A DNA stretch of 64,000 bases from Azolla caroliniana (lineage: Eukaryota; Plantae; Polypodiophyta). Of this stretch, positions 8,196-62,307 are shown piece after piece. The stretch lies in assembly GCA_043228905.1 (NCBI GenBank), contig JBHGNT010000006.1, positions 18,352,001 through 18,416,000 of the forward strand. The letters run 5' to 3'. Position numbers and translations under genes: made by a program. Under the pieces are notes generated by a model, which did not search any database, was not told where the DNA came from, and saw nothing but the letters and a program-made list of their open reading frames with translations. Each line of letters starts with the position of its first letter. The stretch's first letter is position 1.

Positions 8196-9409
8196 AACTC
8201 CCCCTTCACTCCGGCATGCGATGTCTTACTAGTCTGATCCGCTTCCGGCATGCATCCAGCTTGTCGGGTATCAGTACTTTGGTCAACATATCTGACCCAT
8301 TCTCGGCTGTGTGGATCTTCGTCAGCGCGAACTCCTGGTCATCTACTCTTTCCCAGATCCAGTGATACCTTCATTGGATATGCTTCGCCCAGGAATGGTA
8401 GGCCACATTCTTAGCAAGGTGGATGGCACTTTGACTGTCGCAATAGAGCCGGTATTCATCTTGCCTGATACCGAGCTCTCCGATGAAGTCCTTCATCCAT
8501 AATATTTCCCGGCCGGCTTCCACAGCCGCCATGTACTCCGCCTCCGTGGTTAACAACGCAACCATCTTATGCAGCCTCGACTGCCACGAAATAGCTCCCC
8601 CTGCATATGTCATTACATACCCGAATGTAGACGGGCTGGTATCCACATCAGCCGACGTTTCCGAATCAGTAAAACCATCAAGTTGAGGTTTACCGGAGCC
8701 GAATCAGAGACACATATTTGAAGTGCCCTTCAAGTACCGGAGTATCCATTTGACCGTTGTCGTGAAGAAAACCGTCCCCTGGCGCAATCGGTGAATAGCA
8801 CACATGAACCGGCCCTTCACGTGTGCGCTCTCTTAATGTATAGAATAGAGAATTAGGTATAGAGAGAGATCCTGGGTAGTTAGATTCGGTAGGTGGGAAG
8901 TAAATGAGGGAGACGGCTCCCTTCTTGATGCTATAAAGGAGAGGGAGATGCAGGGAGAGGGGATCGCGCATTAAGGAGGACGAAGTGCTATCGGACCGGA
9001 ACCGAACGTTTCTCCTCTGTCTGTTCTCTATTGTTCTTCTCTACAGGCTTCGGGAGGCTCGCGCTGCTTCGAGGAACGCCCGTGTGCTTCCGACAGCTCC
9101 TCCATCTTATCACCTTTCCGTGCGCAGACGAACAGGCATCGACATCTATTCGCCGGCCTGTTCGGTTGTAACTGCTCGCGTGTTCTGTTGTGTTCTTGTT
9201 ATTCGTTAATATACAAACAATTGTGTCTCCCTGTCTCTGTGTCCATTCGTGTTTTCTGTGTTGACGGGCCACGCCCCTGTGTTTCTTTGCTCATACGTGA
9301 CCGGGCGTCTCTCTCCTTCTTTTTCCCCTTTTATCATCTGCTCTTCGGTTCAAGACCCCGGTGGTCCCGCCTCGTTTTCCCACGCACGCGCGTAGTAACG
9401 CGACATCTT

Positions 9410-9429
9410 TGGTGAACCCGACGTGAATC
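9410..9429 (+). promoter_or_regulatory. PBS complementary to tRNA-Trp
   Basis: TGGTGAACCCGACGTGAATC is the reverse complement of the plant tRNA-Trp 3' end (...GATTCACGTCGGGTTCACCA, recalled from memory). Confidence 0.85.
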
Positions 9430-9449
9430 AGGCGGCAGAGGAGCAGAAG

Positions 9450-12400
9450 ATGAGGGGGTCAGATCTTGCAGAGGCCATGGCTTCGGCCGTGGACCGGATA
9501 GTGAGCGCGCGCGAGGGCACTGGCGCCCTCGACAGGGCTATTGAGGCGATTGTCGGTACGATCGGCCGGTTCAGTGGAAAGGATGCCACGAGTTATTTGG
9601 CGTCCTACTGGGCGGATATGTTGATGAGGGATATTCCGGAAGAGAGGCGTCTTGCCGGATTCCCTCGAGTGGTGATGTCGGGCATCCATGCGGAGGTGCT
9701 CGAGGTCCAAGCGGAGAGCCGGACCTGGGAAGAGTTCGAAGGACGGCTCCTGGAGAAGTACGGGCTGGATGACGCGCTTCGACTTTCGAAGCGGAGCTTC
9801 ATGGAATGGGTGGAGGCCCCCAAAAAAGGAAGAAATGCGTCGGTACTCCTCCGGGAGTTTGAGGAACGCTTTGCGCGCCTTTCGGCGCTCAATCGGACTG
9901 TTCTGGACACAAGTCGTGTCCTACTGTTTGTCAAATCGGTTGACACACGGGATCGGGGGCAAGTTGGCTCCTTACTGGAAACCAAAGACGGGCTGACGAC
10001 CGACTGGGCAGCGGTAAAGAGATTTTGCGGCCGTTTTGACAAACGGTGGGAGTGGGCTGATACAGAGGCGACCGGGGCGGGACCTGTCGCAGCAAGGAAG
10101 CTCAAACCGATACCGCAGGCACGAAGGGAAGAGACCCGGGAATGGCTCGAAACCAGTTCTTCTTCGACCGGCGTGATCAGAGGCTCGTCCGGGGGAACAA
10201 CTCTGGAGGAGTTGACACGAGCGGTAAAGGATCTCCAGATTGCCCAGGCTCGGAGGGAAGGCGGCGATCAGGCTCGCGACCGACGGCCTTCGGCAAGAAG
10301 TAGGTGCATGTGGTGCGACGAGGTCGGCCACATCCGGAAAGACTGCGGGGACTTTATGGAGGCTTTGAGAAGCCGGGTACTGTGCCTGTGGGAGGGTCGG
10401 GTGCACGCCAGCGATACCCGGAGGGCCCTAAACCGAAACGACGGGAGAGGAGGAATGAAAAGGCTGATGGAAGAGGCGGCAACCCGGCACGCGGAGACTG
10501 TCCACTACTCAGCGTCAGCCGGTATTCGGGTTGGGGGCAGCGAGGCCCAGAAGGAGAGCAAAGCCGAGTTCTGGCCGACGATGCTGGAAGGCCTCGCTGG
10601 TGCCCGACTGAAGAGAGACGAGGCGGACCGCGCGGAGAACCGGGTCCAGGAGGTAACCGGGTGGAGTGACCCGGTCGAAGAAAAGACGGGTTTCGTAGAA
10701 GCAGCTTGCCAGAACTACGAAGCTCTGGTTGAAGACAAACGGGTAGGTAGAAACGGAGGGGCCGGACCCTCACAGAGATAGGAAACCCGATTCGGGCCGA
10801 AACGGAACGAGGCCGGTGAGTCCAGTGCCCGGGATAACCACAAGAAGGGCAGATACCGGCTGGGCACGGAGATTGAAAGGACCACGGACCTATGAAAGGT
10901 CCTGGGAGAACGAATCCTCGACAGCAAGGTGGAACTGTCGTTGTGAGAGGTGCTCGGGATAGCCAAGAAGGAGTTCCACGACTCCATCGTGGACTTGGTG
11001 AAGAGGAAGAGGCTGTCGATGAAGGTAGAACCGGAAAGGCCGGTGGAAGTACGGACAGCGCACATAGAGGACATGGCGCTGGAAGACGAGTGGGCGGAGA
11101 GCCACTATTCGAGGCCACACTGGGCCCGAGCGACCACGGAAACCCCGGTGAAAATCGGAGATGTTCAGGAACCGGTGGTGGCACTGGTGGACCACGGTTC
11201 GGAAATAAACCTGATGTCCATGGACTTCTACAAAAAGGGGAAGATATGCGCGGCAACGCGCGCCACCGAGGAACTACACGGGGCCTGCCCAAACGTGCGA
11301 GTCAAGATCAGCGACGTCGAAATAGACCAGCACTTCTTTGTGTAGGAAACGTCCTCGCACCCGGTCATTCTAGGGGAACCGTACATTACGGCGGCACGAA
11401 TGGAGACCAAGGTGTTGGACAACGGGTCGGCGTACGCGAGGGTCAAGAGCCAGGACGGGCATCATTCGGTCCAGTTCCTGACGGTACGACCCAACCACGA
11501 GCGAAACCGCGAGTCCCTCGGTGGCGAGAACCGAGAGGATTTTTAAAGAGGGTTGCCAAGGCGTGGGGCCGCGACAGTCCGGACACTCTGGGAAAACCCC
11601 ACAAATGTACGATAGAAGTGAAACCAAAGAATCCTTGTACCATAAGTAGGAAGTTTTGTTTCTCCCACAACGGAGGGTGTACGATAGTCGGCGTCGTAGG
11701 CCAAGAAAAGACAAGGGCAGAAAGGCGACTTCGGGCGTGCGGAGTTCTTGGGCCCAGCGAAGAAATCAACGGAGCCATGGAGGCGGTCTCCTTTGATGAT
11801 ACCTTGGGAATACTGCGAGAGGTGGTCGGAGAGTGCCTTAAAGAGGACCGGATGATACCGGTTTGTTCAGAAGAGATGTATGAAGTCATCACGGACTTCA
11901 GTCGAGGGCTCGAGTTAGATCGGACGGCCCGGGTTCACACGAAGTACAAGGCTATGGACCGGAAGGTAAGGCCAGTCGCAGCACCCTTACCGGAGGACAG
12001 CGAGTTGCAAATCGAGGGGGTCGCGTCGGACCCCAGTTTACGTGATCCGGCCCGCATAGGACACACCTTCACTGACAGAACGCTACGGGAGCTCAAAATC
12101 GGTGGGGGCGGGTTCCTACTGCCGGCGGAAGAAGACCAGTTTCGGAGGATGCTCGGAAGGCACGGGAAAGCCTTCGCATTCTCGCCGGAAGAGATCGGGT
12201 GCGTAGACCCGACAGTCGTGAAGCCGATGGTGATATTGACGGTACCGCATGTACCATGGAATCTCAAGCCAATTTCGGTACCGAGAGCTCACATCCCGGA
12301 GCTGATGGAGCTATTGAGGCAGAAAGTCGATATGGGCATCCTCGAACCGTCGAGTGCCCTGTACTCGAACCGGTGGTTTACTGTACCGAAGAAGAACGGG

Positions 12401-15400
12401 ACGTTGCGCTTCATTCAAGACCTGCAGTCGGTCAACAGAGTGACCATTCGGAACGCAGGAATCGGACCAACAATAGATGAGTTCGCGGAGGCCTTCACCG
12501 GAAGGTCGATCTACTCAGTCGGTGATCTGTACTCGGGGTACGATCAGTTCCAACTAGCCGTAGAGAGCAGAGACATTACGACGATGCGGACTCCTCTCGG
12601 CCTAGTGCGGATGTGCACCCTGCCGCAAGGAGGGACAAACTCGGTGGCCCACATGGTGAATGCGATGAACAAGGTGCTAAGGGATTGTATCCCGGACATC
12701 ACCATGCCATTCTTGGACGACATCCCAATCAAGGGATGTTCGGTGGGGGAAAAGGACGAAACGATCGGACCGGACGGATGCAGGAAATTCGTGACGACAC
12801 ACATTGACGACTGCGAGAGGGTGCTGCAGAGGCTAGAGGACGTGAGGCTCACCTTCTCCGGGGAGAAATCGGCCTTCGGGCAATCAGAGATCATGGTCGT
12901 TGGACATCTATGCGGAGCGAATGGCCGGAAACCATCTCCGGCCAAGGTAGAAGTCATTTCTGCTATGAAGCCCGATTGTAACTCGGTCACGGAGGTACAG
13001 AGGTTCTTGGGAGCATGCGCGTTCTACCACATATGGATCCCACATTACGCCCACGTTGCCGAGCCACTATATGGGTTGCTGAAAAAGGGGCAAAAATTCG
13101 AGTGGCGAGTCGAGCATGCGGAGTTAGTCTGAAAAATGAAGGAGGCTCTTACTGCAGCTCCGGCGCTCCGGAAGGCGGTCTATGAGAAAGGCACCCCCAT
13201 CTACATAACGGTAGATACGAGTCCGACCGGGATCAGATGGGTCGTCAACCAAGAAGATGAGGACGGTATTCGGTTCCCAATCCGGTTCGGCGTGAAGGTC
13301 CTCAGCGAGCGACAGCGAGGATACGCCCAGGTTAAACGCGAACTCTGGGGTATCGTTTCGGCGGTAAAGGCCGATAAAGACTATCTGATCGGGACGGAGG
13401 TAATTATCGAGACGGACTGCCTGCCAATCCTCGACATGGTTTCCGGATGCGCAACTCCGGACCTGGCAATGCTCAGGTGGATAGCGTATATCAAGTCCCT
13501 AGATCCGGAAATACGACACATTTCCGGGAAGGACAATGCCATGGCCGACATGCTTTAGAGGGCCCGATTCGACGACGAGGGCGGCATGGTTTCGGAGGAC
13601 GAGGAAGTCGGCGTAGACTTCTTCGAGGCGGCTTACGTAACAACCGAAGGAAAAAGCACTCCGGCGCTTAACGATTTCAACGAGAGCAAGTACGACGGGG
13701 AGTGGCTGCAAATTGGGGGATTCTTGAGGACAATGGTGCCGGACGCATCATGGACAAGGGACGAGGCCAACCGGATCCGGAAGAAAGCGTACCGATTCTT
13801 TCTCCGAGACGGATACTTATGGAAGCACCCGAAGAAGAGGAACGACATCCCGACCCGAGTAGTGGCGACGAAGGAGGAACAGGACGAATTGTTGAAGGCC
13901 TACCACGACAGCCCTTGGGCCGGGCACCGTGGGACGTGGGCCATGTTCGAAAAGTTAAAGGGGAAGTACTGGTGGCCGGGACTGTACTAGGACGTGCATC
14001 GGTTCGTGACAACTTGTGAGAGTTGTCAGATGCACTCCATAATCCGACATCGAGACAAGCTTCACCCCACTTACCCTCCGGCCATCCACTTCAAATGGAT
14101 GGTAGATTTGGTGACGATGCCGATGGGCGTAGGGCAGATGCGGTATCTGGTGCTGGCCTGGGAGCACTCCGGCGCTTAACGATTTCGACGAGAGCAAGTA
14201 CAACGGGGAGTGGCTGCAGATTGGAGGATTCTTAAGGACGATGACGCCGGGCGCGTCATGGACAAGGGACGAGGCCAACCGGATCCGGAAGAAAGCGTAC
14301 CGATTCTTTCTCCGGGACGACTACTTGTGGAAGCACCCGAAGAAGAGAAACGGCATCCCGCACCGAGTAGTGGCGATGAAGGAGGAACAGGAGGAGTTGC
14401 TGAAAGCCTACCACGACAGCCCCTGGGCTGGACACCGTGGGACGTGGGCCACGTTCGAGAAACTAAAGGGGAAGTACTGGTGGTCGGGACTGTACCGGGA
14501 CGTGCATCGGTTCATGACAACTTGTGAAAGCTGTCAGATACACTCCATAGTCCGACATCGGGACGAGCTTCACCCCACATACCCTCCGGCCATCCACTTC
14601 AAATGGATGGTAGATTTGGTGAGGATGCTGATGGGCGTAGGGCAGATGTGATATCTGGTGCTGGCCCGGGAGGACCTGACGAACCAGGTGGAAGGCCGAG
14701 CCCTGCAGAACAAAACGACCGTGGCCGTGTGTCGGTTCCTGATCGAGGACGTGATATGCCGGTACGGATGCGTCTGAAAGATCGTGGCTGACCGCGGGGA
14801 GTTGGACGCCGAAGAGGCCAAGGAGCTGTTCAACCGGTTAGGGGTCAAGCTCTCGCTCACCACAGCGTACAATCCGGAGGCAAACGGGAAGTTAGAGCGC
14901 GGGCACAGGCCAATCGTCAAAGCGCTAGTCCGGGCGTGTGGAGGACAGGTCGGGAATTGGCCGCGACTGTTACCCTATGCCTTGTGGGCGGACCGGACAA
15001 CGCACAGTTCGGTTACCGGGTTCATGCCGTCAGAACTCATGTTCGGACAGAAGCCGATCATGCCGATGGAACGGACGATCTCCTCCTGGGCGACAGTAGA
15101 CTGGAGTGACGAAATGAGTTGGGAAGAACTGCTTGCGGCGCGTATACGGCAGCTCGAACGGAGGCCAGAGGATGTGGAATGAGCGGCGGAGAGACTTCGG
15201 ACGGCGAGAATGAAGAACAAAGCCCGGTTCGACCAAACGCACGGGCTCAGACCAAAGAGAATCGAGGAAGGTGACTGGGTGGTAGTCTACGACAGCAGCC
15301 TCCACAACCAGCACCGAGCAACACGGAAGTTTGCAAAGCGGTGGTTCGGGCCTTACGTGGTAACGGGCGCCAACGACAACGGGACGTACCACCTAGTGGA

Positions 15401-15632
15401 ACTCGACAATATGAGGATGGCGATGCCAGTGGCGGGGAACCTGATCAAAGCGTTCAAGAAGTGCCACGACGGCGAACCGGATCTAAGAAGCCTGGACAAC
15501 GACGATGATCAGTCCGAGGCAGAGGACGAACCGATGGATGAGGAACCGGAACCCGGGCCGTTTTTCTCCAACCAGAACCCAATTTTGGCGCATACCGGTG
15601 GATGCGTGGTTAGGTGGGGGCGGATGTCGTGA
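9450..15632 (+). pseudogene. G2 gag-pol (gag with CCHC knuckle, PR, RT, RNase H, integrase), disrupted
   Basis: Gag 'CMWCDEVGHIRKDC'; PR 'LVDHGSEINLM'; RT 'DLYSGYDQF...PFLDDIP'; RH 'VDTSPTG...RELWG...TDC...NAMAD'; IN 'HDSPWAGH...CESCQ', 'WMVDLV', 'ADRGE', 'NPEANGKLER'. Several TAG/TGA stops; no chromodomain seen. Confidence 0.92.
13655..14672 (+). repeat. 508-bp tandem duplication in G2 integrase N-terminal (H2C2) region
   Basis: AGCACTCCGGCGCTTAACGATTTC occurs at 13655 and 14163; both copies run to TATCTGGTGCTGGCC. Confidence 0.95.
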
Positions 15633-18600
15633 AGAAAACCGTCCCCTGGCGCAATCGGTCAATAGCACACATGAACCGGCCCTTCACATGTGTGCGCTCT
15701 TAATGTATATAATAGAGAATTAGGTACAGAGAGAGATCCTGGGTAGTTAGATTCGGTAAGTGGGAAGTAAATGAGGGAGACGACTCCCTTCTTGACGCTA
15801 TAAAGGAGAGGGAGACGCAGGGAGAGGGGATCGCGCATTAAGGAGGACGAAGTGCTGTCGGACCGGAACCGAACGCTTCTCCTCTGTCTATTCTCTGTTG
15901 TTCTTCTCTGTAGGCGTCGGGAGGCTCGCGCTGCTTCGAGGAACGCCCGTGTGCTTCCGGCAGCACCTCCATCTTATCCCCTTTCCGTGCGCAGAAGAAC
16001 AGGCATCGGCATCTGTTCGCCGGCCTGTTCGGTTGTAACCGCTCGCGTGTTCTGTTGTGTTCTTGTTATTCGTTAATCTACAAACACTTGTGTCTCCCTG
16101 TCTCTGTGTCCATTCGTGTTTTCTGTGTTGACGGGCCACGCCCCTGTGTTCTTTGCTCATACGTGACCGGGCGTGTCTCTTCTTCTCTTTCCCCTTTTAT
16201 CATCTGCTCTTCGGTTCAAGACCCCGGTGGTCCCACCTCGTTTCCCCACGCACGCGCGTAGTAACGCGACACCGTGTTCCAGTGCTCCTTGCCGGGATTG
16301 CTCATAAACCGGCTCACCACTCCGACTGCGTATCCTATATCCGGTCGGGTACACACAATTGCGTACATCAAGCTCCCGACGGCACAGGCATATGGAACCT
16401 TCATCATATCAGCCTTCTCCGCTTTCGTCTTCGAGCTTTGCGTACCGGATAATCTGCAGTTTGTCGGGAGTGTCGATCCGACCGGTTTCGCATCTGACAT
16501 GTTGAACCGGTGAAGCACCTTTGTCACGTACTTCTCCTGTGACAACCACAATTGCTTCACTGACCGGTTCCGACCAATATGCATCCCCAGCATCTGTCTT
16601 GCCGAACCCATGTCTTTCATTGAGAAGGTCCAGTTGAGAGCCTTCTTCAGCATCCGTATTTTGGCTTGGTCCCGTCTGACGATCAACATGTCATCCACGT
16701 ACAGAAGGAGTATCAGGAAGTCGCCTCCTTCGAACTTCCGGTACCATTGTCGGGGAGCCTGCTTTAGTCCGTACAGGCTCTTCTTCAACCGGCATACTAG
16801 GTGCTTCTTCCCTTTGTCCACGAATCCTTCCGGTTGCTGCATGTAGATCTCCTCTTCGAGGTCGCCGTGAAGGAATGTCATCTTCACATCCAGCTGCTCT
16901 ACCTCGAGGTCCATGCTTGCCGCTATACTTAGCACCGTCCGGATGGAGGTCATCTTTACTACCGGGGCAAATATCTTGCTGAAGTCCACGCCCTTCTTCT
17001 GCTGGAACCCCTTCACCATGATCCTGGCTTTGTATCTTGGGGGGTTGCCGGCATCTCCCGGTTTCAACTTGTACACCCACTTATTTCGGAGTGCCCGCTT
17101 TCCTTTTGGCAACTCCACCAATTCATACGTATGGTTCGCATGCAGGGAATCCATCTCATCCTGCATGGCACTTTAACCATTTGCGGTTGTGGGTGTCATC
17201 CTTTGCCTCTACGAAGCTTTCTGGCTCCCCCTCATCGGTTAGCAGCACATGCTCTGCATCCGGAAATCTCCGGGGGGGGCTTCTCTCTCTGAGTGAATAT
17301 CTACGTCTTTGGGCTTCGGTAACCGGCTCATCCATTTGCTCTTCATCTGAATCCCATTCGGGGTCTTGGCCGGTTCCGGTTTTGGCTTCCTCTACTTCTT
17401 CTACTGCCGGTTCGGTATCCTCACCGTAACCGGCTGGTTCCTCGAGTGTTAACCGGTCTCTTGCCGGTTGGGTCTTTTCATCGTAGAATCAATCCTTACC
17501 GGTCGACTCGGAGTTCATTATCTTCTTCTCCGACTCCCAGTCGGCGAGCGTCTTGTCCTCCATGAAGATAATATCTCGACTCTGGAATACCTTCTTGTCA
17601 ACCGAGTCCCACACTCGGTAGCCGAACTCACCGTCGCCGTAACCGAGGAATATGCATGGCCAGGTCTTTGGATCTAACTTTCCTCTCCGGTCCTTAGCTA
17701 CATGCACGTATGCGAGACAGCCGAACACCTTCATATGTCGGTAGGACACTTCCTTACCGGTCCACACCTTCTGCGGTGTGTCTCCATCCAAGGGCACTGA
17801 GGGTGATCTATTTATCACATACGTCGTTGTCGACAGCACCTCAGCCAGAAACGTCTTGGGTAACTTTGCATGCGCTAGCATACTCCGGACTCTCTCCATT
17901 ATGGTCTGGTTCATCCTCTCGGCCAGCCTGTTTAGTTCTAGCGTCTTCGGTACGGTAAATTCGAGCCGGATTCCTTTTGAGCGACAGTACTCCTCAAACT
18001 GCGCCCGGTATTCCCCTCCGCTATCTGCTCGAACCGCCTTCAGCTTCCGGCCAGTTTCTCTTTCCACTCTCACATGGAGCTCTTTGAAGACGGATAGCAC
18101 ATGATCCTTCGTCTTCAACGGTGTGGCCCACAGCTTCCGGCTGTGGTCATCCTGCATGTGACTTCATGTCCACTTGACACACATCAGTATGCACCAACTC
18201 CAGTGGTGCATTACGTCTCATCGGTGGCCTTGGTCGGAAGGAGGTCCGGTTTTGCTTACCGGCCAAACAATCAATGCACTTCTCCAAGTGCACATTCTTC
18301 ACTAGAATGAGGTTGTCGTCTGCAAGCCTCTTCATCCCCTTCTCGCTCATGTGACACAGCCTTTTGTGCCACAGCTCACCGGCAGTGTCGGATGCCACGT
18401 TCACTTCCTCCAGACATAACCGGGCATTCATCAGGTACAGCATGTTGACCTTCCGGGCCCGACCCACAATCAGGCTCCCTTTGCTGAACTTCATAACACC
18501 GTTCCGGATGCTACTCATGTAACCTTCATCATCTAGCCGACCGGCTGATATCAGGTTCAGACGAACCTCTACAACGTGTCGGACATCCTTCAGCAGCAGC

Positions 18601-19706
18601 TTGCATCCGGTTGGTGTTGTCAGCCACATGTCTCCTATGTTGATAATTCGGCATGTACGTTCATTCCCCATCCGAACACAGCCGTGATCACCGGTTGAGC
18701 AGGATGAGAAGCATTTCCTGTCCGGGGTAAGGTGGAACGACGCTCCGGAGTCGACCACCCAGGTCATCTCGTCGCCGGCAAGGTTTATCTCACTCTCCTT
18801 GGTGATGAGCATGAACTCTTCTTCACTTGCCGCGATTGTCGTCGTTCCCTTTTGGTCCGGCCCCCTCTGGTCTTTACCCTTCCGATCAGGTGTCCGCTTC
18901 AAATCGGTACCGTCAGTTTCCTTGTCTTTCCGGAAATGCCGACAGTTCTTCTAGAAGTGTCCCGGCTTGCCACAATAGAAGCAAGTAGGCCTCCCCCTTG
19001 ACTTTGACCGTGTCCCCGACTTTTCCCGGTTCTGGGGACTACGGTTTCTATGTCTTCCACGTTCCGATTCGGTAAGGAGCGCTTTGGAGTTGGAGCTTGT
19101 ATCCTTATCTTTCCGACATGCCTGCTAATCTAGCAAGCTTGACTTAACTCTAGCTAGGGATAACCGTTTCCCTTCCGGCCCGGCGTTGCCCAAACTGACA
19201 ACCAACGTCTCCCAGCTATCCGGGAGGGAACCGAGCAGGAGTAGCGCTAGTACCTCATTGGCGAGAGGTACTTCCAATGATGTTTCCTAGTGGATCAAAC
19301 CCTGGAAGGCATTCATGTGCTCCACCATGCTGGAGCCATCTTGGTACCGGAGTCTTACTAGCTTCCGGAATACCGAAACCTGATTAACAGCATTTTTGTT
19401 TTGAAACATAATGTCGATCTTCTCCCAGAGCTCATGAGCCTTGCTCTCTTCATTGAAGTTGTTGTATAGGCTCATGTCGATGAAGCACCGTATGTACGTC
19501 GTTGTCTTCATGTGCATCACCTCCCATATCGTGGCGTCGATTTTGTCCGGTCTCTTGTCCCCAAACTGAACCGGCAACCAAAGATCTTTAACCACGAGCA
19601 TGTCCCTCATCTTCGACTTCCACACCGAATAGTTGGAGCCGGTGAGCTTAAACATGCCTCCCAACGAATCGTCCATTTTCTGTGTCGTTTCGCTCTGATA
19701 CCACTT

Positions 19707-20265
19707 TGATAGGAACTACACGCTCCCTATGCGCAACGCTCGGCCACAACCGAACTTAGAAACATACACAAAAAAACGGGGAATGGATGCACGACACAGA
19801 GGAGAGAAAAAAAAGAGTACATAGGATGTTTACGTGGAAAACCCAAACTAGGGAAAAACCACGGCAACCCACACACTGCGAACTATCACTATATCACAAG
19901 GATTACAATAGTGAGCTCACGGAGGCAACGACCTCGTGCTCACGATCTTCGCCACAGGCAGCGGTTACAACAGAAGCAACGACCTCTTCGTTTCTTTCTC
20001 TCTCTCTCTCTGTACATTGTTGCGCTCTAATCTTGCACCAACAAGAAATGACAACAACCTTTTCTATCCTCAAAAGTTTGCCCTAAGTCATATTTATACT
20101 AATATGACTTTTCGACTATTTACAAATATAGCCACGATGGACTCTCAAAAACATATTTACGAATATGTCTCTTCATCCGGTGAGCACTCCTCACCGGGCC
20201 TACATCATTCGGCGCTTGTCGGGTACTCGTCATCCGGTTCTGACCGGGTCTTCCGTTTCCGGGTA
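19707..20265 (-). repeat. 5' LTR of C3, outer ~180 bp missing
   Basis: Matches 7453-~8015, then homology stops abruptly at ...TTCCGGGTA into AT-rich DNA. Confidence 0.9.
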
Positions 20266-20944
20266 AATCAATATTGAGGAATGAAGCACCACAACAATTA
20301 AAGAAAGAAGAAACTCAAATGGATAAAAATAAAGACACTTTTCAAAAATGTCAAAAAGTAGAAAAAAACACAAAGTGGTGGAAAAGAAAATTTCAATAGA
20401 GAAACAAGCTCATAACTTCGTCATCTGATATCCACATTTAGAAAGAAAAGATTCATTAGAAATTTGACAACAAGACCTTTCCAATAATATCTTATACACC
20501 AATATTAGAGAACTAGAAAGAAGAAATAGTGATGAAAAAAGTAAGTCAATGTCAAATGAGGATAACTAGGTCTATCTTTAGGATATATTATAAACATCTT
20601 AAACACCTCACATAGACCCAAGCATAGAATGAACCATACGTGCATTCGCATTCAAGAATGATTCAATCAAACGTGTATGGTAAATCATCTCAAAGTTGGA
20701 ATGGATTGACTATGGTCTATATTATATATTGATTCACTCTCAATCCCAATAAGTGAACTCAATTGTGAACCACCAACATAAGTATGGTTACAATATTTGC
20801 ATTGTATCACATGCATACTTTTGGGATGCTTCATAAGAATCAAGACATCTCTATCATCCTCACTTTAGAACTTTACAAAAGAATGAGTATGAACTATAGA
20901 GATTGAATCAAAATATGTCATTATAAATTATAATCAAATGTTCA

Positions 20945-21600: not shown

Positions 21601-21643
21601 ACAACAACAACAACAACAATAATAATAATAATAATAATAATAA
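21600..21643. repeat. Compound microsatellite (AAC)n(AAT)n
   Basis: ACAACAACAACAACAACAATAATAATAAT... Confidence 0.9.
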
Positions 21644-22458: not shown

Positions 22459-22536
22459 TGTCATGAACAGTACTGAGACAGAGAAGGAATTAGTACTATG
22501 AGAGGTGTGGAACTTCTTCGAGAGAAGGAAGAAGTG

Positions 22537-22570
<34 letters not shown>

Positions 22571-25500
22571 TGATGATAAGAAAGATATGTATTATATGAA
22601 GAGAATATACAATGGTGGCTAAAAGGCTTAAGACTGGCGTTGAACCAATTTGGTTCAACATAATGCCTAATGCCCTCTTTTATAGTGTTTTCAAGAGTAA
22701 TCCTGAAGCTTCTAGAATGTTCCAGAGAAATCTGGAATATACACTAATTTCCTATAATAAAATATAAATGAAAATAATATCCTACATATTACAATAGATG
22801 ATCTAATGGTCAAGAGCTCGACTCATATAACCTAAGGTCATGGGTTGGAGTCTTGCCATATCATGACACTATCCCCCCTTTAAAAAGACGAGTGTCACGA
22901 GTCGTCTTAGATTGAGGACCTGGTTTGTGTGGATATTGACGATGGAAGTCTTCAAGAAGAGCACGACCATTGGTCACATTCTCGATCGGTTCCCGAGTAC
23001 GTTCGTTGGGGCTATAGCCTAGCCAATCGACTAGATAGTAGAGCTTGTTGCGAACAATCTTCGAAGCAAGGATGGCAGCAACCTCGTACTCCGGCCCATC
23101 TTCAAGCTTGATCGGGGGTGGAGGTTGGATAAGACGTCTTGGGATGGTGCTCTCGTGGTAGGGTTCGAGGAGAGAACTATGAAACACCGGATGTATCCGA
23201 AGTTGAGGAGGTAGATCGAGACGAAAAGCGACATCATTAATCTGTCCAATAATACGGAAAGGACCTAATCGCCGATAATCTAACTTCTCACATGGACGAG
23301 TAGTCTTGATGTGTCGTCGTAGCAGCCACACCCGATCTCCAATATTAAAATTGGATGGAAGTCGATGACGATCCGCGTAGACCTTGTGTGTTTGTTGAGC
23401 TTGCTGGAGATGAGTAGATAAATCCGCTTGTATCTTCCGTAACTGCTCCAAACGATCCTCTGCGCACGGATTTGTGGACACCTCTGGGGTTTCAAGTACA
23501 CTCCACCGGAGGTCACATCCCGTATAAGCATAAAATGGCGTAACTTTAGTGGATGCGTGGATAGAGTTGTTATAGGAAAATTCGGCAAAGTGGAGAATAT
23601 CTGCCCAGTCATCTTGATGATAGCTGAGAAAGCACTACAGATACTGCTCCAACATTTGATTTGTTCGTTCAGCTTGGCCGTCGTTTTGTGGGTGGTAGCC
23701 GGAGGAGAGGTTACAAGTGACCTTGAGCATGTTAAAAAGGTGCTTCCAGAATTTTGACACGAACTGGGGTCCACGGTCACTGATGATACTATTGGGAAGT
23801 CCATGATGCCGACATACTTCACACATGACAATTTCGGCAGTGTCTTCACTGGAGATCTCCTTAGTACATGGCAAGAAATGAGCCATCTTCGTATATCGAT
23901 CGACCACCGTTAGAATCGCATTGAACACCTTAGAGACTGGAAGATCTGTGATGAAGTCTAGAGCAATGGATTGCCACGGCTTGCTTGGAATTCGTAATGG
24001 TTCTAATAAACCATATGAATAATGCCTTGGCATTTTCGCTCTACAACATGTATCACAAGTCCCAACAAAATCCTCGACAAATTGTCGCATACAGGGCCAC
24101 CAGAATGTTCGTTGTACTAAATGTAATGTTTTAGTACTACCAAAATGCCCAGCTGTATATGTGTCATGAGAGTTTTGTACTACTCGAAGGCGGCAAGAAC
24201 CATTAGGAACATACAAAAGTTCTTTAAAGAAGAGTAATCCATCATGGTATTTGAATTGCCGATAGTCTGTACCTGGTGGTTGCGACTGTGAACACGATGC
24301 TCGAGAGGGATCAATTTGTGCTAGTATAGCTTGGGCGAACGCATCTGTCTTCAAGTCTTCACGTATGGTATCGATAACGCGGGAATCCATAGGCATGTCA
24401 AAGATCTGTGTTGCTTGTAGTCGTGCCGGTCCCAAGATGACTTGTTTTTGGTTATCGAAAGTTGGCTCGCCGGGACGGGGTGCTAGATACGAACGCCGTG
24501 ATAATGCATCTGCCTTCCCTTGGTGCCTCCCCGGGCGATATGTAATTTTGAAGTCGAAACGCGTGAGGAAGTGGGCCCACCGAGCTTGACGTCGATTCAA
24601 CACACGAGCATCCTGAAAGTAGGCAAGATTCTTGTGGTCACTAAATACGGTGACTGGATGAGAGGATCCCTCCCGAAAATGCCTCCATTGCATAAAAGAA
24701 TCCACTATTGCCAATAGCTCCTTATCATGAATTTCGTAGTGGATTTCAGCGGCGTCAAACTTGCGTGAGTGAAAAGCCACAGGATGTAGCTTCTCATCAT
24801 TCCCCTGTTGTAACAGAATGCTCCCCAATGCAAAATCCGATGCGTCAGCTTCGATAATGAATGGTTTTTCCGGATCGACATGAGCTAGAATTGGAGCTGA
24901 TGTAAATGCCTTTTTAAGACTCTCGAAAGCCATGTCCGTTTCTTCAGACCAGATGAACGGTTGTCCCTTCCTGGTAAGTTGTGTGAGAGGTAGAACGATC
25001 TTTGAGTAATCTTGTATGAACTTCCGGTAAAAATTGGCAAAGCCTAAGAAGCATTGCACATCCCGCACCGAACGCGGAGTCTGCCATTCTACCACCGTTT
25101 TGACCTTAGCTGGGTCCATGGAGATGCCTTCTGACGAAATGATGTAGCCGAGAAATTCCACTTGGTTGCACCCAAAACTACATTTTTCCAACTTTGCATA
25201 CAGACCATGTTCTCGAAGTCGTTTTAGTACTAATAGTACATGAGAATCATGTTCTTCTTGGGTCTTTGAATAAACCAGTAGATCATCCAAATAGATGATC
25301 AAACAATCATCCAATAGATCCCGGAATATATCATTAGCCATGTGTTGGAAGACTGTCGGCGCATTAGTGAGGTCGAATGGCATGACCGTATACTCGAAGT
25401 GCCCATATCTGGTGCGAAACGTAGTCTTCCATTCATCTCCTAGTCAGATCCGTACGAGGTTATATGCTCCCCGTAAGTCGATCTTCATGAAGAACCTGGC

Positions 25501-27789: not shown

Positions 27790-27837
<48 letters not shown>

Positions 27838-28132
27838 TGATAAGAAAGATATGTATTATATGAAGAGAATATACAATGGTGGCTAAAAGGCTTAAGACTG
27901 GCGTTGAACCAATTTGGTTCAACATAATGCCTAGTGCCCTCTTTTATAGTGTTTTCAGGAGTAATCCTGAAGCTTCTAGAATGTTCCAGAGAAATCTGGA
28001 ATATACACTAATTTCCTATAATAAAATGTAAATGAAAATAATATTCTACATATTACAATAGATGATCTAATGGTGAAGAGCTCGACCCATATAACCTAAG
28101 GTCATGGGTTCGAGTCTTGCCATATCATGACA
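22459..28132 (-). mobile_element. G3: full-length chromovirus (Ty3/Gypsy, Tcn1-like)
   Basis: LTRs 22459-22868 and 27691-28132 with TGTCATGA...TCATGACA termini; TSD TAATG on both sides; G-run PPT next to 22869; gag 26603-27562, PR 'LLDSGANSCF' (~26290), RT 'KIDLRGAYNLVRI...YLDD', RH 'EADASDFALG', IN, chromodomain. Confidence 0.97.
22861..27562 (-). pseudogene. G3 gag and pol with C-terminal chromodomain (a few stops/frameshifts)
   Basis: ORFs 26603-27562, 25444-26265, 23635-25383, 22861-23481; chromodomain 'EYEVAAILASKIVRNKLYYLVDWLGYSPNERTREP'; a 22-bp duplication at 26641-26684 frameshifts the Gag knuckle. Confidence 0.93.
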
Positions 28133-32024: not shown

Positions 32025-32476
32025 TACAACAAACAAGTGTGTAGGTACTAGGTAGCACTTCCCTTCTTCCCTTGGTGACACCACCACTACCCCACACTAG
32101 GGCCAATATCTAAACTAGGGTCAATATCAAAGCAAGCACCTAGAAGAAGACCTAGCAACTCCCTCTCAATCACCTCCTCCTCCTCTTGCTGCTATTATTT
32201 GCACTTAATCAGTTTCCAAAACCCATGCATGTATATATGTTTTGTTTGTATGTAGTGCACACCTCTTTGTTGTCTTTGGTTTTTTTTATCCATTTCCATT
32301 GTTTCTTTATTGCTTCCTTCCCTCCAATCAGCCATTAATTATGAGGGGTAGTAGCTCAACAAAGCCCTTCGGTGACCCCCACCCCCCCCCCCCCCCCTTC
32401 AATTAATTCCCTTCTTTTTCTCACCAACAACTACTCTTAAGAGTCTTTAGTTGTGCTAGCTACAAATAAGAGGTAC

Positions 32477-41343: not shown

Positions 41344-41345
41344 TG

Positions 41346-44300: not shown

Positions 44301-45287
44301 TACCAATCTCGAGCACGACCATAGAATGTAGCTACCAACAAGGGCAACTTTTCGTTGTCGGTGATGCGTCCAATAGATATGGCATGATGCTCAAAGCATG
44401 CCAAAAAGGCACCAGCATCTTGTGTTCTTTCACCCGAAAATGCAAATTGCATAGCTAAGTTAATGTAATATAGTAACACAATTAAATGATAACTTCTCTT
44501 CCTATACGGAAAGGATCGGCCCTCCCTGGAGCGCCAAAATGAAAGGGTGTATAAGATAATAGATAGTTATACACTATATGAGGGCTTGACCAAACCGATT
44601 AGATGGAGTTGAAAATCATAATATATTATATAGCTCTAGGTAATTATGATTAGAGAGTATAACTCAAGAAACTAAGAAAAAAGATAGAGAAAGCGAGCAA
44701 GAAATAAGAATGTTCTGATATTCCAACATCAAGAGAATACAAAGGAGACAAACTCCACATTGAACTAAAACCAAAGACCTTCCTCTTCTAAGACACTTCC
44801 TCTTCCACAAAGACACTTCTTCCTAACACTCCTCATCCACTCTTTGGCCTTCACTCTTCGCCCTATCCTCCCTAATATCACTTCTTCTTTTATAACCTTC
44901 CTCTTCTTATCCACGTTCATGCTATTTTTAGAAGCTTTTTATCTCCCTATTTTTAGCTATGACACATCGACCTTCTAATCGTCATATCTCCCTCATCCGA
45001 TATCCAAATTAAGCGATTTAAAAAGCTATAGAAAGCTCTTTTTACAAGCTTTCTAATCCATATTTAAACGTGATATTTGGATAAACAACGAGGGAGTTAT
45101 GACCATTCTATTTTTACTGTTTTTTATAGTCTGCGTTTTCTCTTTTTACTTTTCTCTTGGTCTCGTACTTTTACTTTTGACTTCTTCCCTAAGGTCTTAG
45201 TTCGTGTTCTTATCCTCAAAATGTGAATTATCCATACTTTATATCCATCTAGTGTTCAATGGTTTGAATTCAAAAAACACTTTCACA
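41346..45287 (-). mobile_element. G4: young 3.9-kb non-autonomous Ty3/Gypsy-type LTR element
   Basis: 748-bp LTRs 41346-42093 and 44540-45287 (one mismatch seen), TSD CATTG, PBS (minus) TGGCGCTCCAGGGAGGG, poly-G PPT at 42094-42120, single long ORF. Confidence 0.96.
42353..44452 (-). CDS. G4 Gag-protease-truncated-RT polyprotein (~699 aa from first ATG), intact frame
   Basis: Gag 'FSGERTQDAGAFLACFE...GRARDWYDSL', knuckle-like 'CYSCQEEGHSTRC', PR 'LGDSGARVSLI', RT relics 'VSPIVLVPKKN', 'INFKPLNDSTKRDEFSLP', 'GFHVDDSKINII..M..PTSLEAL..F'; no YxDD, RNase H or integrase. Confidence 0.88.
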   Translation of the reverse strand: MQFAFSGERTQDAGAFLACFEHHAISIGRITDNEKLPLLVATFYGRARDWYDSLPQNEQGEYQLLVHQFRTRYIQWKSATEVREELFQLKMESPFGFLEYERNFQELWTTWIRLRGGTEDEWFKIEQFKVGLDMHFRLEASLKDPTTFQALLQVCQDYDRQVKMMSSMGDPQMTALGANLMPRANFQALSSIVHGGQVFPNVYTTTTINPTSISQEVEQVKSEQDTMALVNRRFDEVMAHLQQSQAIRNTIPDGGGSRGHQGVICYSCQEEGHSTRCPHRQQRGMERDMYEVQRNGQRPINNGVEGGESITLPMTQVPTIPHNVNLLNFIDDSDSACEVALVKRTRASQKEKEVEGESSDSRQKKKSKENEKEDKLRRRHSRRKIKMEDIPMGEGVESFNRKHELISSGPRITWPQLLQLSSTLQNEWGRLVSICQSQKTVHYVGIMRVEDRKDISPITPVSIKGVHIKDALGDSGARVSLISEFVVNKVGIPISRSSSTRVVVVDSGVVHCTSIVEDVFIKCFGIRGEACNKYHINLKESVSISPKLRQLSVEQKEEFMQEFNAWLQESSNYKMEDLRCVSPIVLVPKKNEINFKPLNDSTKRDEFSLPSRDEIVDKMVVYTKQGSVDNMLCQKGFHVDDSKINIITKMTIPTSLEALKVFVQKVRSLERFIYMLTCLLLSRVMYPMALLVFGELTKT

Positions 45288-56964: not shown

Positions 56965-59726
56965 CCCCTCAAGCTCAACTTGAGGTTCCATATGCTTTTC
57001 CAGATCTTCGCTCCGGTTTCTCCTTGCTTCACACCTTGCTCGCGCTCCTCGACCCGTCCAATTCCGCACGCTTCGACCCTTCCAGTCGGCTTGTCTGCTC
57101 ATGCGGCCTTTCTCAGCTACCTTGCTATCGGAGTGTTCGTGCCTCTTTCATTTCCCTTTTCTATGCTTGTCCCTCAGTTGATTTGGCGTACCCAAATCGA
57201 ACATTATGATTGAATCAAACATTTCTGATTCATTCCCACTTTCACCCGAATTGGCTGTCTCTAGTTTGTCTTTTGCCTTCCATCCCTTAACTATGTCCAA
57301 CCATGTCTTAGTCTTGGCCTTTACGCCTTTCGTGGCTTTGTTTCCCCTTTGTTCGGCTGTCTTCGGCTCTTCCTGGCGATTACAACCCCTATTTTCTTCT
57401 TTTGCTTCTTCAGCTGGCCCGAAATCGAATTCCTCATCCGATTCGGCATCGCGGATACTATCGCTCCTTTCACGCTCATGTTCTTGTTCCTGTCTCCCCC
57501 TCAAGTTCGGCGTGTCGAGGTGCCGCAAACCTAGCTCAACCGAGAAAAACCATAATTTGTCGAGACCAAGGGGCTTGGTGAAGATGTCTGCAATCTACCG
57601 ACCCGTCGGAACATACGCTAGTTCAACTTCACCAGAAAGGCCATGCTCATAAACAAACTGCTAGTGCACCTCAATGTGCTTGGTCCGACCGTGGAATACA
57701 GGGTTTTTCGCAAGGTGGATGCTGCTGAGGTTGTTGTAGTAGATCGTTGTTGGATCGGACACCTCTACGTGCAGATACCATAATAGCCGTTTCAGCCAAA
57801 TGACTTCGCACGTAGCGATAGTCGCCCCTCGATATTCGGCCTTTGTACTCGACAGTGCTACTGTCGGTTGCTTCTTACTGCTCCACGTGATCGCCGCACT
57901 TCCCAATGAGAATGCGTATCCGGATGTGGATCTACGATCGTGGGCATTTCCGGCCCAATCGACATCCGTGGAGCTGACTAATTGCTCGACTACATTTGCA
58001 TGATACAACAACGCCATGTCTTTCATGCCGCTGACATATCGTAATATCCTTTGCGTTATCAAGAAGTTTCGCGCGTGCGTGTAGAAGGGCGGGACCACGG
58101 GGGTCTTGGACTAGGGAGTGACGGAGCGTAGGAACTCGTGACACACCATTTCCGAGACGTCGGAAACAACCCAAAAGGAGGGAGAGAAGAACATGCGCGC
58201 ACCCCTGGCCGACACACGCACACACACAGTGCCGACCCCACTCACGCTCATGTATAGAAACAGAAGTAAGGAAACACTAAAACACCCACGCATACACCAA
58301 AAACGCAGAATCTTCCATAAGTATATTTACAAGAAGCAAGATACAACAGTCGTCTACTGCCAAACCGCCGGTCGGGGAGCTCACGGGCTCGTCGTGCCGA
58401 GCGGGGTCTTGCACATCAGACAGGGCAAATACCGAACCTGAAGGTATCAAGCTAGACCCATAGAGTGACGAAGAAGAAACAGAGGAGGAGAAGAATAAGA
58501 AACCCTAAAACAAGAGAGAGAGAGGAAGAGAGAACGTCTCTCCATCTAACGGTATACCCTACTAATACAAAATGGGCAACCCCCTCGAAGAGGGGCGCTC
58601 CCTTCCTTTTATAGAACAAGGGGAGGGATGCGTTACAATGTGGGATAAAATTTCCCCTCTTATTTCTGTACACCATTTCCTAGTATACATGTGCACATGG
58701 TGCACACCACCGATTTGCCTATTCCACCCCGGTTTCCGCTTATGGACGAAAATCTTCACGACATCCGCCCCCACCAAACCGCACGTCCACCGGTACGTGC
58801 CAAATCCGGTGAAGGGTGAGAGATTTCGGTCAGTGAGAAACCCGGTCTTCCGTAATCCGCATCCCGGCTCGCTGCCGGTTTGAATCGTCGGCTTTGGTTC
58901 TTCCTTCGCACTTACCTCCCCGTAGGCTTGTTCGACCCGTCGATGGGTCCTTCGCCGTGATCTCCGTAGTACGCGTCCTTCTGCTGGCCCTTGTTCGGCT
59001 GTATGCACGCTCTGCTCTCCGTCGTACGCCTGATGTCCTTCGCTTGAGGAATGCTCGTAGTGGCCCGCCTGGCCTCCATCGACCATTCCCGTGGTCCTGA
59101 TTGTCGTCCCGCGTTGTTTTTCACTTCCTTCGTCCCCTCACCGCCACCTTCCTTCTCCTTGGTCTTACGTCACCTCATCGGCTCGGACCGCCAAGGCCTT
59201 CGGAATGGTGTGGAGGTTCCTTCTCCGGTCTTCTACGCACAACCTCCGAACCGGGCGACTCAATCTTCGCGCTCGCCTTTCCACTCCGGGCCCTCCATGT
59301 GCCGTCTTCCGCTTCCTTCGTTCGGCACCGCCCATGCCGAACACCGTCCCGTGGTCACGCTTCGATCCAGCCCACGATGGCCACTTGCGAGACTCTTGTT
59401 CCGCCCCAGGCGTGCCTTTCCGGCCCAACACACCTCCCCGTGTTTTCCCCTACCGGCTCCTTCTGAAACCGTAACCGTTCGGTAAGGGTTTCGCACTTCG
59501 TCCGCCCCGTCTTACCGACCTTTGTCGATGCCGGGTCCCGTTCCTTGCCGCCACCTTCCTTCTCCCTCGGTCTTATGTTGCCACGTTGGCCGAACAGCCG
59601 GAGTCTCCGAAACTGGTGTGAAGATCCCATAGGACCAGTCTTCGTTTCGTTGCTAGCCGAAATTCGGGTCTTTTGTTCGAGTCCCTCTCGGACTCTCCTC
59701 GTGGCTTCCGTGTAGTCGGGTCCCGT

Positions 59727-60502
59727 TGTTGTGAAGAATTTTGGCCAGAGGCGGAAACCGAGAAACATTGGCTACATCGGCGGGGTGCAGCGTGTGTACG
59801 CACCCATGTACATTTAGTGTGAATAACGAGGGCGCCTTTATGGCACCGAAGAGTAGTCAAGTTGGGACAGACGATCCCATGTAAGTCAGGATTTATCCCA
59901 CATTGTAACGCATCCCTCTCCTTGTTCTATGAAAGGAAGGGAACGCCCTTTGTGAAAGGGTTGCCCATTTTGCGTTAGAGGGTATACCGTTAGATTTAGG
60001 GTTAGTTACGCTTCTTCTTCTTTTTCTTCCCCCTTCGTGTTTTGCCTAGGGTTTGCTTTGGCTCGGCCTCCTGTGCAAGACCCCGCTCGGCGCGACGAGC
60101 CGAGAGCTCCCCGACGGCGGCTTGACAGCAGACGATTGGTGTAACCTACCTTGGCCCGGCTTGAAGCCGGGAATGTATGTATTCTTCTTTTTGTATATAT
60201 ATATACGTTGCGTCTATCTGTGTATATTCGGGTCTTTGTTGGTGTCGGGTGCTTCCCCTTTCCCCCGTTTCATGTACATAAGGGCGTGAGTCGGGTCGGC
60301 ATGTGTGTGTGTGTGCGTACGTGTGCGTGAGTCGGTGTTAAGCGCACGCTCCCTCTCTTTCTCTCTCTCCCTTCGGTCGTTTCCGGTGTTCTTCTGGGAT
60401 TCCCCGGAAACGGTGAAGCACGACTTCCTACGCTCCGTCACTCCCTAGTCCAAGACCCTCGTGGTCCCGCCTTTCTCCACGCACGCGCGTAACGACGCGA
60501 TA
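59727..60502 (+). mobile_element. G6: solo LTR of the G2/G5 family with 4-bp TSD CCGT
   Basis: TGTTGTGAAG...CACGCACGCGCGTAACGACGCGATA; reverse-similar to 58057-58763; CCGT at 59723-59726 and 60503-60506. Confidence 0.88.
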
Positions 60503-62307
60503 CCGTTTCCTGCCGCCATCAGCCTTCTCTCAAGGTCTCACGTTGCCACGCTAGTTGAACTGCCGGAGTCTCCGGTCTGGTGTGGGGATCCCGTAGGACC
60601 GGACTTCCTTATGCCCGTGACCTTGCCGGTAGGTCCAATTCGGTTAGTAGCCGCTTCGCCGGCCTAATACCTTCTTTTTCTGCTTTCGTCGTCCGATCAC
60701 ATTAACCTGCCGCCATCGACCTCTCCTATAGGACTCATGCCGGCACTCGGGCCGATCGCCAGATCAATGTGAGGATCTTCGCAAACCTCCCCTCCGCAAT
60801 CCTTCGCCTTCATCCCCTTTCCGCCACCGATCACCACTCTAGGTCTCACGCTGGCTCTTGGGCTGACCGCCGGAGTCTCTGGAACCGGTGTGAAGGGTCC
60901 TTCTTGGGCTCATCATACTTCGCCGTTTCCGCCCTTATCCCCTCGCCGCCACCGTCAGTATCTTGGTCTTACGTCGACCGTGTTGCCGACTGCCGAAGTC
61001 TCTAGATCTGGTGTGAAGGTGCCTCCTTGGGCTCCTCGTATCCCTGACCCTTCTCCCGGGTCTTACTTCCTTCGCAAGCCGAGAGGGTGGCTCGCTCCAC
61101 ACCCTCTCCTGTGGTACCGACGCACCGTGTTCTCGGCCTCTTCGTAGGGCTGCTCTCTTCCTCCCTCCCGGAATGGTTATCCGGTAGTCCACTCCGCCCG
61201 GTTCTCGTTCGGGTTCGTTCGTCTATCTCCGGATTGCCGGGTCCCGTTCTCCTGTCGCCACCGACCTCTCCTACAGGACCCATGCCGGCACTCGGGCCGA
61301 CAGCCGGATCGGTGTGAAGATCTCATGGGACCGGTCTTTGTTCTCCTCTTTGCGTTCTTGCCTCAATCTTCCATCTCTTTCGGTCTTACGTTGCCACGTC
61401 GGCCGAACAACCGCAGTCTCCGGATAGGATGTGGCGTAACCGATTTCACAATGTCTTTTCGCGACTCGTCCGGGCCACCGGCCCTTTTAGTGGTGTCGGT
61501 GGATAGCATCTGATCTGTGATCAATCAAGCCCCGCCTGGGCTTGATTCTCCAATGTCCGGAGTTTTGGGTCCGATGCCGACCTTGCCAGAATCGTTCCGA
61601 ACCTTTGATCACCTTCCTTCCAATTCCCGACCTTCGCCCAGTCGGTCTTTCTCCCCATGTAAAAGAGGGCGGCTCGTCCCGCAACCTCTCTCGTATCGGC
61701 ACCTTCATGCCGAATCCGGCCCCATTCGAACAATCCACAACGGGATTACGCTCCACCCGTATCGGAGTGTCGCACGGTTCGGTCCCCGGTCGGGTCATCC
61801 CTTGGTCTCTTCGTCGACCTTTTCGCGGGCCATCTCCCATCCATCTTCGCTGGCATCGTGCCAGGACTCCTCGATACTGTCATCCATCTCCTCGGTCTCA
61901 CTTGGGCTTAAGGGCCCGAACGCCGAGTTCTTCGGAATCGGGTTCGAGGGCTTTCGTCCGCTCCTTCCCCGTATCGTCTCGCCGGTGATTCTTGGTTTCT
62001 CGCGGGCGCATTCCTCCTCTTGGGACTCAAGTGGGCACTCGGGCCCGACTGCCGTTGTCTCGGGAGCAAGCATGGGAAGACTCAAGGAATTGCTCGTCCG
62101 TTTTACGCACTTGTCCGTAGCCACCGGCTCTTCGTGGTCAGCGGCCATTTCCTTACCGATTGCGCAAACCCCGTCTGGGCTTGCTTCTCCAATGACCGGG
62201 GTATCGGGCTGACACGCCCGACACCGCTGGTTCCAACGTTCCGATCCCGCGATCGGTATCTCGGCTTCGTCCTTGGCCGTTCTATCTCCGCAAGTTGAGA
62301 GGGCGTT

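What the first reader, a model, noticed from the sequence alone, without database searches (positions are those of the whole stretch)
8754..60506. tRNA-Trp-primed Gypsy family with 4-bp, CG-centred target sites (CCGT, CCGT, GCGT)
Seen: G2 (8758-16271) is flanked by CCGT/CCGT and the solo LTR G6 (59727-60502) by CCGT/CCGT; the one visible flank of G5 (58053-58056) is GCGT. Removing G2 with a 4-bp duplication exactly restores the host RT codons, and removing G6 restores a repeat motif seen at ~59535 and ~61238. The four other LTR insertions with both flanks visible have 5-bp TSDs of unrelated sequence. Established: plant LTR elements usually make 5-bp TSDs with weak preference; 4-bp sequence-specific targeting is known for insect errantiviruses (gypsy TATA, ZAM CGCG). 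Inference: this integrase targets NCGT, possibly reading (methyl-)CpG, which would steer it into GC-rich silenced transposons; all three copies sit inside other TEs. It may belong to a basal non-chromovirus lineage (Phygy/Selgy-like). The sample is only three insertions.
Basis: partly seen in the sequence, partly recalled or inferred. Interest (0 to 1): 0.78.

Follow-up and report, generated by a model that had tools for sequence, protein, structure and literature searches.

The report
Phygy-like retrotransposons that insert at CG
These plant jumping genes insert almost only at 4-base sites with CG in the middle, a real preference that was already published for the moss 'Phygy' lineage, to which they likely belong.

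Summary
G2 and solo LTR G6 have CCGT/CCGT duplications; G5 lies on the minus strand, so its flank is ACGC. In related LTR ends from public metagenome contigs, 81 of 91 unique 3' flanks have CG at +2/+3 (background 3.9%) and 19 of 22 5' flanks at -3/-2, which fixes a 4-bp duplication. The motif is VCGB (80 of 81), best ACGT, not NCGT (43 of 81). It is not new: Neumann et al. 2019 list Phygy as 4-bp TSD, NCGN, tRNA-Trp primer, no extra domain, and Phygy has since been reported in ferns and a liverwort. G2 fits these traits, but no Phygy reference sequence was available for a tree. A flexible pyrimidine-purine centre with T and A avoided at the edges is the published signature of 4-bp retroviral intasomes, so target bending plus base contacts is the likely mechanism. 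Steering into GC-rich DNA is not supported (flanks 43% GC, no rise near the junction). Methyl-CpG reading could not be tested.

The parts
8758..16271 (+). G2, full-length but mutated non-chromovirus Ty3/gypsy element, 7514 bp (about 7.0 kb without an internal tandem duplication)
8754..8757 (+). left TSD copy of G2 (CCGT)
16272..16275 (+). right TSD copy of G2 (CCGT)
8758..9405 (+). G2 5' LTR, 648 bp
9410..9427 (+). G2 primer-binding site, 18 nt, 4 nt behind the LTR; exact complement of an abundant CCA-ending small RNA listed as miR894; tRNA-Trp identity is recalled, not shown by a call
   Evidence: ARAGORN checks gave nothing
9399..10781 (+). G2 gag-like ORF (stop to stop, 460 aa, no Pfam hit; 39.5% identical over 200 aa to the G5 ORF)
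10877..15630 (+). G2 pol region: protease (weak hit), RT (about 12383-12907), RNase H (13133-13555), integrase with SH3-like end (weak hit); several stops and frameshifts; no chromodomain, no second RNase H
13655..14675 (+). 508-bp tandem duplication in the integrase N-terminal region (90.8% alike)
15612..15624 (+). G2 polypurine tract directly before the 3' LTR; nearly the same tract precedes the G5 LTR
15625..16271 (+). G2 3' LTR, 647 bp
7453..20270 (-). Copia element that hosts G2 at the end of its RT region (ends approximate)
58053..58056 (-). 3' flank of G5: ACGC in element orientation (GCGT on +); lies in a Copia RT/RNase H remnant
58057..63330 (-). G5, gag-only derivative of the same lineage (no pol match); 3' LTR 58057-58763, PBS 63178-63195, 5' LTR from 63200 broken near 63331 by a Copia LTR
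59727..60502 (+). G6 solo LTR, 776 bp, inside G5 in the opposite orientation
59723..59726 (+). left TSD copy of G6 (CCGT)
60503..60506 (+). right TSD copy of G6 (CCGT)

Best explanation
G2, G5 and G6 are Ty3/gypsy retrotransposon copies that sit at 4-base CG-centred duplications, likely belong to the Phygy lineage of non-seed plants, and likely owe the preference to their integrase bending the target at the flexible CG step and contacting the neighbouring bases. Shown: 4-bp duplication, CG centre, symmetric VCGB motif with ACGT best, PBS and PPT, no chromodomain or extra RNase H. Inferred: tRNA-Trp priming, Phygy membership, and a foamy-virus-like intasome with a 4-bp stagger that selects the site by local sequence and shape, without a chromatin reader. 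Most non-CG sites (5 of 10 read TG) are likely later deamination of a methylated CG. Nesting in other transposons likely follows from a transposon-rich genome, not from steering.
For: 81 of 91 unique 3' flanks CG at +2/+3, 5 TG (blind count 82 of 93, background 3.9%, p about 5e-103). 19 of 22 5' flanks CG at -3/-2, none at -4/-3. T at position 1 in 1 of 81 (background 36%), A at position 4 in 0 of 81 (34%); ACGT 7.5 times expectation. Both LTR subtypes behave alike (55 of 60, 26 of 31). Phygy row: 4 bp (100%), NCGN, tRNA-Trp 81%, no extra domain. None of the 120 listed long relatives shows a Chromo (PF00385) or RVT_3 (PF13456) domain in its precomputed list. 4-bp retroviruses select a YR centre and disfavour T and A at TSD positions 0 and +3 (PMC4422553 section 6). 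The best solved matches of a relative's integrase are foamy-virus integrases.
Against: No Physcomitrium Phygy sequence could be fetched, so the defining tree test is missing (the tree is a quick tree without that reference). G2 is slightly shorter than the Phygy range (7514 vs 7656-9968 bp). The tRNA identity was not confirmed by any search. A general YR preference does not explain why CG wins so fully over TG, CA and TA; that needs specific contacts that I did not model. The outside LTRs are at most 85% identical to G2, so they are relatives, and most come from a few related assemblies. Short-read contigs are often chimeric across LTRs (L004 and L077 carry both PPT and PBS), so paired TSDs there are weak: 4 exact 4-bp pairs, 1 exact 6-bp pair (L036), 7 mismatched.
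Confidence: 0.8

Rival explanations
1. The integrase core senses 5-methyl-CG and so targets silenced DNA without a chromodomain.
For: CG is chosen far more strictly than other YR steps. All three window copies and at least 43 of 89 outside flanks lie in transposon-like DNA. The G2 site reads T at 16275 in both TSD copies where related host-Copia contigs mostly read C before G, which suggests the host copy was already methylated and decaying.
Against: No reader domain by Pfam. Flank GC and CpG content equal background (43.1% vs 43.6% GC; CpG o/e 0.81 vs 0.81). Most of this window is transposon DNA, so nesting is the null expectation. For retroviruses local preference is largely independent of chromatin (PMC4422553 abstract). 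No methylation data were available.
Confidence: 0.1
2. The elements form a sister lineage of Phygy, or belong to TatI, and share the target preference by ancestry.
For: TatI also has 4-bp TSDs and tRNA-Trp. G2 is below the Phygy size range. Named relatives come from a fern and liverworts, none from Physcomitrium.
Against: TatI carries an extra archaeal-type RNase H in 100% of members; none is seen between RH and INT in G2 or three close relatives (one Riccia protein has a sub-threshold RVT_3 hit, E 0.048, overlapping its own RNase H). NCGN is reported for Phygy only. Phygy is reported from ferns and a liverwort.
Confidence: 0.08
3. The pattern is chance or a boundary artefact (really a 5-bp duplication).
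For: For G2 alone the last A of the LTR could be counted into a 5-bp ACCGT duplication; the window holds only three insertions.
Against: G6 5-mers differ; CG register on both sides gives exactly 4 bp; LTR ends are fixed by 16 PBS junctions and the TG...CA rule; p about 5e-103.
Confidence: 0.02

Closest known systems
Phygy clade, non-chromovirus Ty3/gypsy (Neumann et al. 2019, PMC6317226; passages and Additional file 5 read)
   Same: 4-bp TSD, NCGN target, Trp-type PBS (recalled identity), no extra domain, polyprotein filling most of the interior, non-seed plant host.
   Different: G2 is about 140 bp below the listed size range; host is likely a fern, not Physcomitrium; this work sharpens NCGN to VCGB with ACGT best; a gag-only derivative (G5) is present.
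4-bp TSD retroviral intasomes: PFV, MoMLV, PERV, XMRV (Serrao et al. 2015, PMC4422553; abstract and section 6 read)
   Same: Palindromic site, YR step at the centre, T and A disfavoured at the first and last TSD base.
   Different: Their YR enrichment is modest (63% above random on average); here one YR step, CG, takes 89% of sites.
TatI and Selgy (PMC6317226, Additional file 5)
   Same: 4-bp TSD; TatI uses tRNA-Trp; both are from non-seed plants (TatI host recalled).
   Different: TatI has an extra RNase H; Selgy uses tRNA-Ala and averages 5.0 kb; no NCGN preference is listed for either.
Insect errantiviruses gypsy, ZAM
   Same: 4-bp sequence-specific targets, ZAM CG-rich.
   Different: They carry env and belong to another clade; no env-like ORF in G2.

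Membership tests
Phygy | Groups with Phygy references in RT/RH/INT phylogeny (the formal criterion) | not testable with these tools
   REXdb FASTA (Additional file 3) too large to read; no named Physcomitrium hit among the 240 listed proteins. The quick tree (51 rows) puts G2 among fern and liverwort relatives, far from the window's Tcn1 fragment.
Phygy | 4-bp TSD | tested here: met
   G2, G6; register in 81 of 91 and 19 of 22 outside flanks
Phygy | NCGN target | tested here: met
Phygy | PBS for tRNA-Trp | tested here: inconclusive
   18-nt exact complement of a CCA-ending small RNA in PMC5846777 Table 3; that it is the tRNA-Trp 3' end is recalled; no tRNA gene could be fetched
Phygy | No chromodomain, no extra RNase H, no extra ORF; coding region spans the interior | tested here: met
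Phygy | Length 7656-9968 bp (descriptive; the paper calls size of little weight for classification) | tested here: inconclusive
   G2 is 7514 bp, about 7.0 kb without its internal duplication
TatI | Extra archaeal-type RNase H | tested here: not met
Tcn1 / chromoviruses | C-terminal chromodomain, 5-bp TSD | tested here: not met
   No Chromo hit in G2; the window's own Tcn1-like element has both
Selgy | tRNA-Ala PBS, about 5 kb | tested here: not met
   G2 exceeds the Selgy range 4432-6724 bp; PBS is Trp-type by recall
Methyl-CpG-reading integrase (hypothetical) | Preference for methylated over unmethylated CG | not testable with these tools
   No bisulfite data or assay; composition proxies show nothing

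The most novel reading that the evidence does not exclude
The Phygy-type integrase core reads 5-methyl-CG directly, giving a plant retrotransposon a chromodomain-free route into silenced DNA; the near-absolute choice of CG over other flexible steps would be its footprint.
Probability: 0.1. Interest if true: 0.75.

Novelty: new member of a known kind. Interest (0 to 1): 0.22.

Why it matters
As it stands it adds a sharper motif (VCGB, best ACGT) and a likely fern example to a published trait of one lineage. Phygy is the only plant LTR lineage for which the 2019 survey reports a target motif, so its integrase is a useful comparison for how a 4-bp intasome becomes sequence-specific. The motif also helps to call element ends and to date insertions by CG decay. 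It would matter much more if the preference depended on methylation.

Tried and rejected
Rows dropped before the count: 16 PBS junctions, 7 without a unique terminus, 1 truncated, 4 duplicates, then L008 (not an element) and L094 (another element's end inside the LTR) by hand. Confirming tRNA-Trp failed: 31 viral loci held no tRNA, no match in prokaryote genomes, paper searches gave only miR894 listings. Pairing TSDs in short contigs is unreliable because of chimeras. A count of source assemblies failed because the files hold no contig names. The careful tree did not finish; the quick tree is shown, with a long partial outgroup. A link to fungal Ylt1-like elements was considered (DUF4100 in Riccia relatives; Mucoromycota cluster first in the Atlas; PMC2864245 and PMC5014426 passages) but not tested. 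A homolog search with the nearby lipid-transfer gene gave one unnamed hit and no host name. Laying contigs on the LTR end showed depth running on through the four flank bases and dropping about 7-9 fold after them; depth is no copy number, so it is not counted. GingerRoot (PMC6839031, passages) has a 6-bp TSD and is no close parallel. Additional files 1 and 3 of PMC6317226 could not be read; file 1 lists each TSD and may already show the VCGB bias. Searches for a prior report; none of the listings or passages I saw gives VCGB or a methylation test for Phygy.

Full report
The window is a nest of plant LTR retrotransposons with one lipid-transfer-protein gene near 31.6-32.1 kb. It holds several Copia elements, a chromodomain-bearing Tcn1-like element (22459-28132) and the three copies in question. 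Named relatives of the G2 reverse transcriptase come from a fern (Adiantum nelumboides) and liverworts (Riccia, Calypogeia) at 48-71% identity, with unnamed relatives up to 92%. A non-seed plant, likely a fern, is the inferred host. No whole genome was available.

Observation. G2 (8758-16271) has LTRs of 648 and 647 bp that are 95.1% alike and is flanked by CCGT on both sides; the 5-mers differ. G6 (59727-60502) is a solo LTR with CCGT on both sides, and the repeat unit it interrupts carries one CCGT at 59533 and 61239. G5 is on the minus strand, so its flank is ACGC in element orientation, and its terminus is decayed. The host-Copia sides of G2, translated apart, leave one plus two bases, one codon in all. 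Contigs of uninterrupted host copies leave the reference at 16271 and continue like the left flank. Four other elements have 5-bp TSDs. The three copies are different families: LTR distances are 0.20-0.33. For G2 alone a 5-bp reading (ACCGT, with an LTR short of its last A) is formally possible; G6 and the data below exclude it.

Larger sample. The LTR end was called without looking at the flank. After dropping 16 PBS junctions, 7 loci without a unique terminus, 1 truncated locus and 4 duplicates, 82 of 93 flanks had CG at +2/+3 against a background of 3.9% (p about 5e-103), and none at +1/+2 or +3/+4. Removing two non-termini by hand gives 81 of 91, with 5 TG and 5 others. On the 5' side 19 of 22 flanks have CG at -3/-2 and none at -4/-3. 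CG two bases in from both ends means a 4-bp duplication. These LTRs are at most 85% identical to G2 and come mostly from a few related assemblies, so they test the lineage, not this genome. Left and right flanks of one short contig often disagree because assemblies are chimeric across LTRs: 4 exact 4-bp pairs, one 6-bp pair, 7 mismatched.

Motif. Among the 81 CG sites, position 1 is A 55, C 14, G 11, T 1 and position 4 is T 43, C 19, G 19, A 0; background has T before CG in 36% and A after CG in 34%. VCGB covers 80 of 81 against 42% of background CG sites, and ACGT is 7.5 times expectation. NCGT covers only 43 of 81. G is modestly enriched just outside the right end (32 of 81, p 4e-4) and C just outside the left end (10 of 22), which hints at CACGTG as the best extended site. 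CG-to-TG/CA change at the TSD (5 vs 81) is not significantly different from that at the LTR's own terminal CG (12 vs 79, p 0.13), so later deamination can account for the TG sites.

Anatomy. G2 has a PBS 4 nt behind the 5' LTR, a gag-like ORF, a broken pol with protease, RT, RNase H and integrase, a 508-bp tandem duplication, and a PPT at the 3' LTR. Neither G2 nor three close intact relatives shows a chromodomain or a second RNase H. G5 matches gag but not pol, so it is a non-autonomous derivative. The PBS is the exact complement of an 18-nt CCA-ending small RNA listed as miR894 (PMC5846777 Table 3, passages). That this is the tRNA-Trp 3' end is my recall; no call confirmed it.

What is known. 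Neumann et al. 2019 (PMC6317226; passages; Additional file 5 whole) state that Phygy elements have an insertion preference for NCGN and list 186 elements with 4-bp TSD (100%), tRNA-Trp (81%), 7656-9968 bp and no extra domain. Jedlicka et al. 2019 (PMC6911290, passages) found 4-bp TSDs most common in Phygy and GC-rich centres in 4-bp TSDs. Phygy is reported in ferns (PMC13477047, one passage) and a liverwort (PMC12885004, passages). The finding is therefore published at lineage level. Formal membership needs a tree with REXdb references, which I could not fetch; my quick tree of 51 rows only shows G2 among fern and liverwort relatives. TatI is excluded by the missing extra RNase H, Selgy by size and primer, Tcn1 by the missing chromodomain.

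Mechanism. Retroviruses with 4-bp duplications select a flexible YR step at the centre and disfavour T and A at the first and last TSD base (PMC4422553, abstract and section 6). That is the VCGB pattern, here narrowed to CG. The best solved matches of a relative's integrase are foamy-virus integrases. I infer an intasome that kinks the target at CG and adds base contacts; this was not modelled. At least 43 of 89 flanks resemble the window's transposons, as expected in such a genome; no random-fragment control was available. Methyl-CpG sensing remains untested. One hint in its favour: the G2 site has T at 16275 in both copies where related host contigs mostly have C before G, so the host was likely already decaying at CG when G2 arrived.

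Earlier notes of this scan were leads only: one names Phygy and a likely fern for a related nest in this genome, others call the genome a likely fern.

Verdict: real, well supported, already described for Phygy; the new part is the VCGB refinement and a likely fern example. Interest 0.22.

Noticed in passing
window 16272-16275 and 58053-58056: G2 and G5 sit at nearly the same place, about one codon apart, in two different Copia hosts, just before the (K/R)IL(R/Q)Y motif at the end of RT. The outside flanks show no obvious pile-up there, so it may be chance.
   Followed up: partly
L118; joints table 5c: Copies insert into or right behind the CG-rich end of their own lineage's LTR (GCGC in L118; ACGT and TCGC before an LTR start in two contigs). 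TCGC breaks the VCGB rule.
   Followed up: partly
L036: A 910-bp solo-like LTR of this lineage has a 6-bp duplication (TCTCGT), a possible aberrant integration.
   Followed up: no
window 58057-63330 (-): G5 is a gag-only derivative whose interior holds imperfect repeats (59533, 60503, 61239) in place of pol.
   Followed up: partly
window 41346-45287 (-): Very young Gypsy-type element (LTRs differ at 1 of 748 bases), 3.9 kb, with gag and a deleted pol, 5-bp TSD CATTG.
   Followed up: no
window 22459-28132 (-): Tcn1-like chromovirus with 5-bp TSD TAATG, LTR K2P 0.025, broken by stops.
   Followed up: partly
window 37780-38809: Tandem array of a 179-bp unit, about 5 copies, 97-98% alike.
   Followed up: no
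window 31617-32096 (-): Lipid-transfer-protein exon (PF14368), the only host gene piece seen; one unnamed relative at 96%.
   Followed up: partly
window 9410-9427: The PBS matches the small RNA catalogued as miR894, abundant across land plants; a tRNA 3' fragment that could silence this lineage through its PBS (idea raised in PMC5846777).
   Followed up: no
P0142, P0145 (Riccia relatives): Their gag regions match DUF4100, and the Atlas lists a mainly Mucoromycota cluster first for the integrase; a possible fungal link of the lineage.
   Followed up: no
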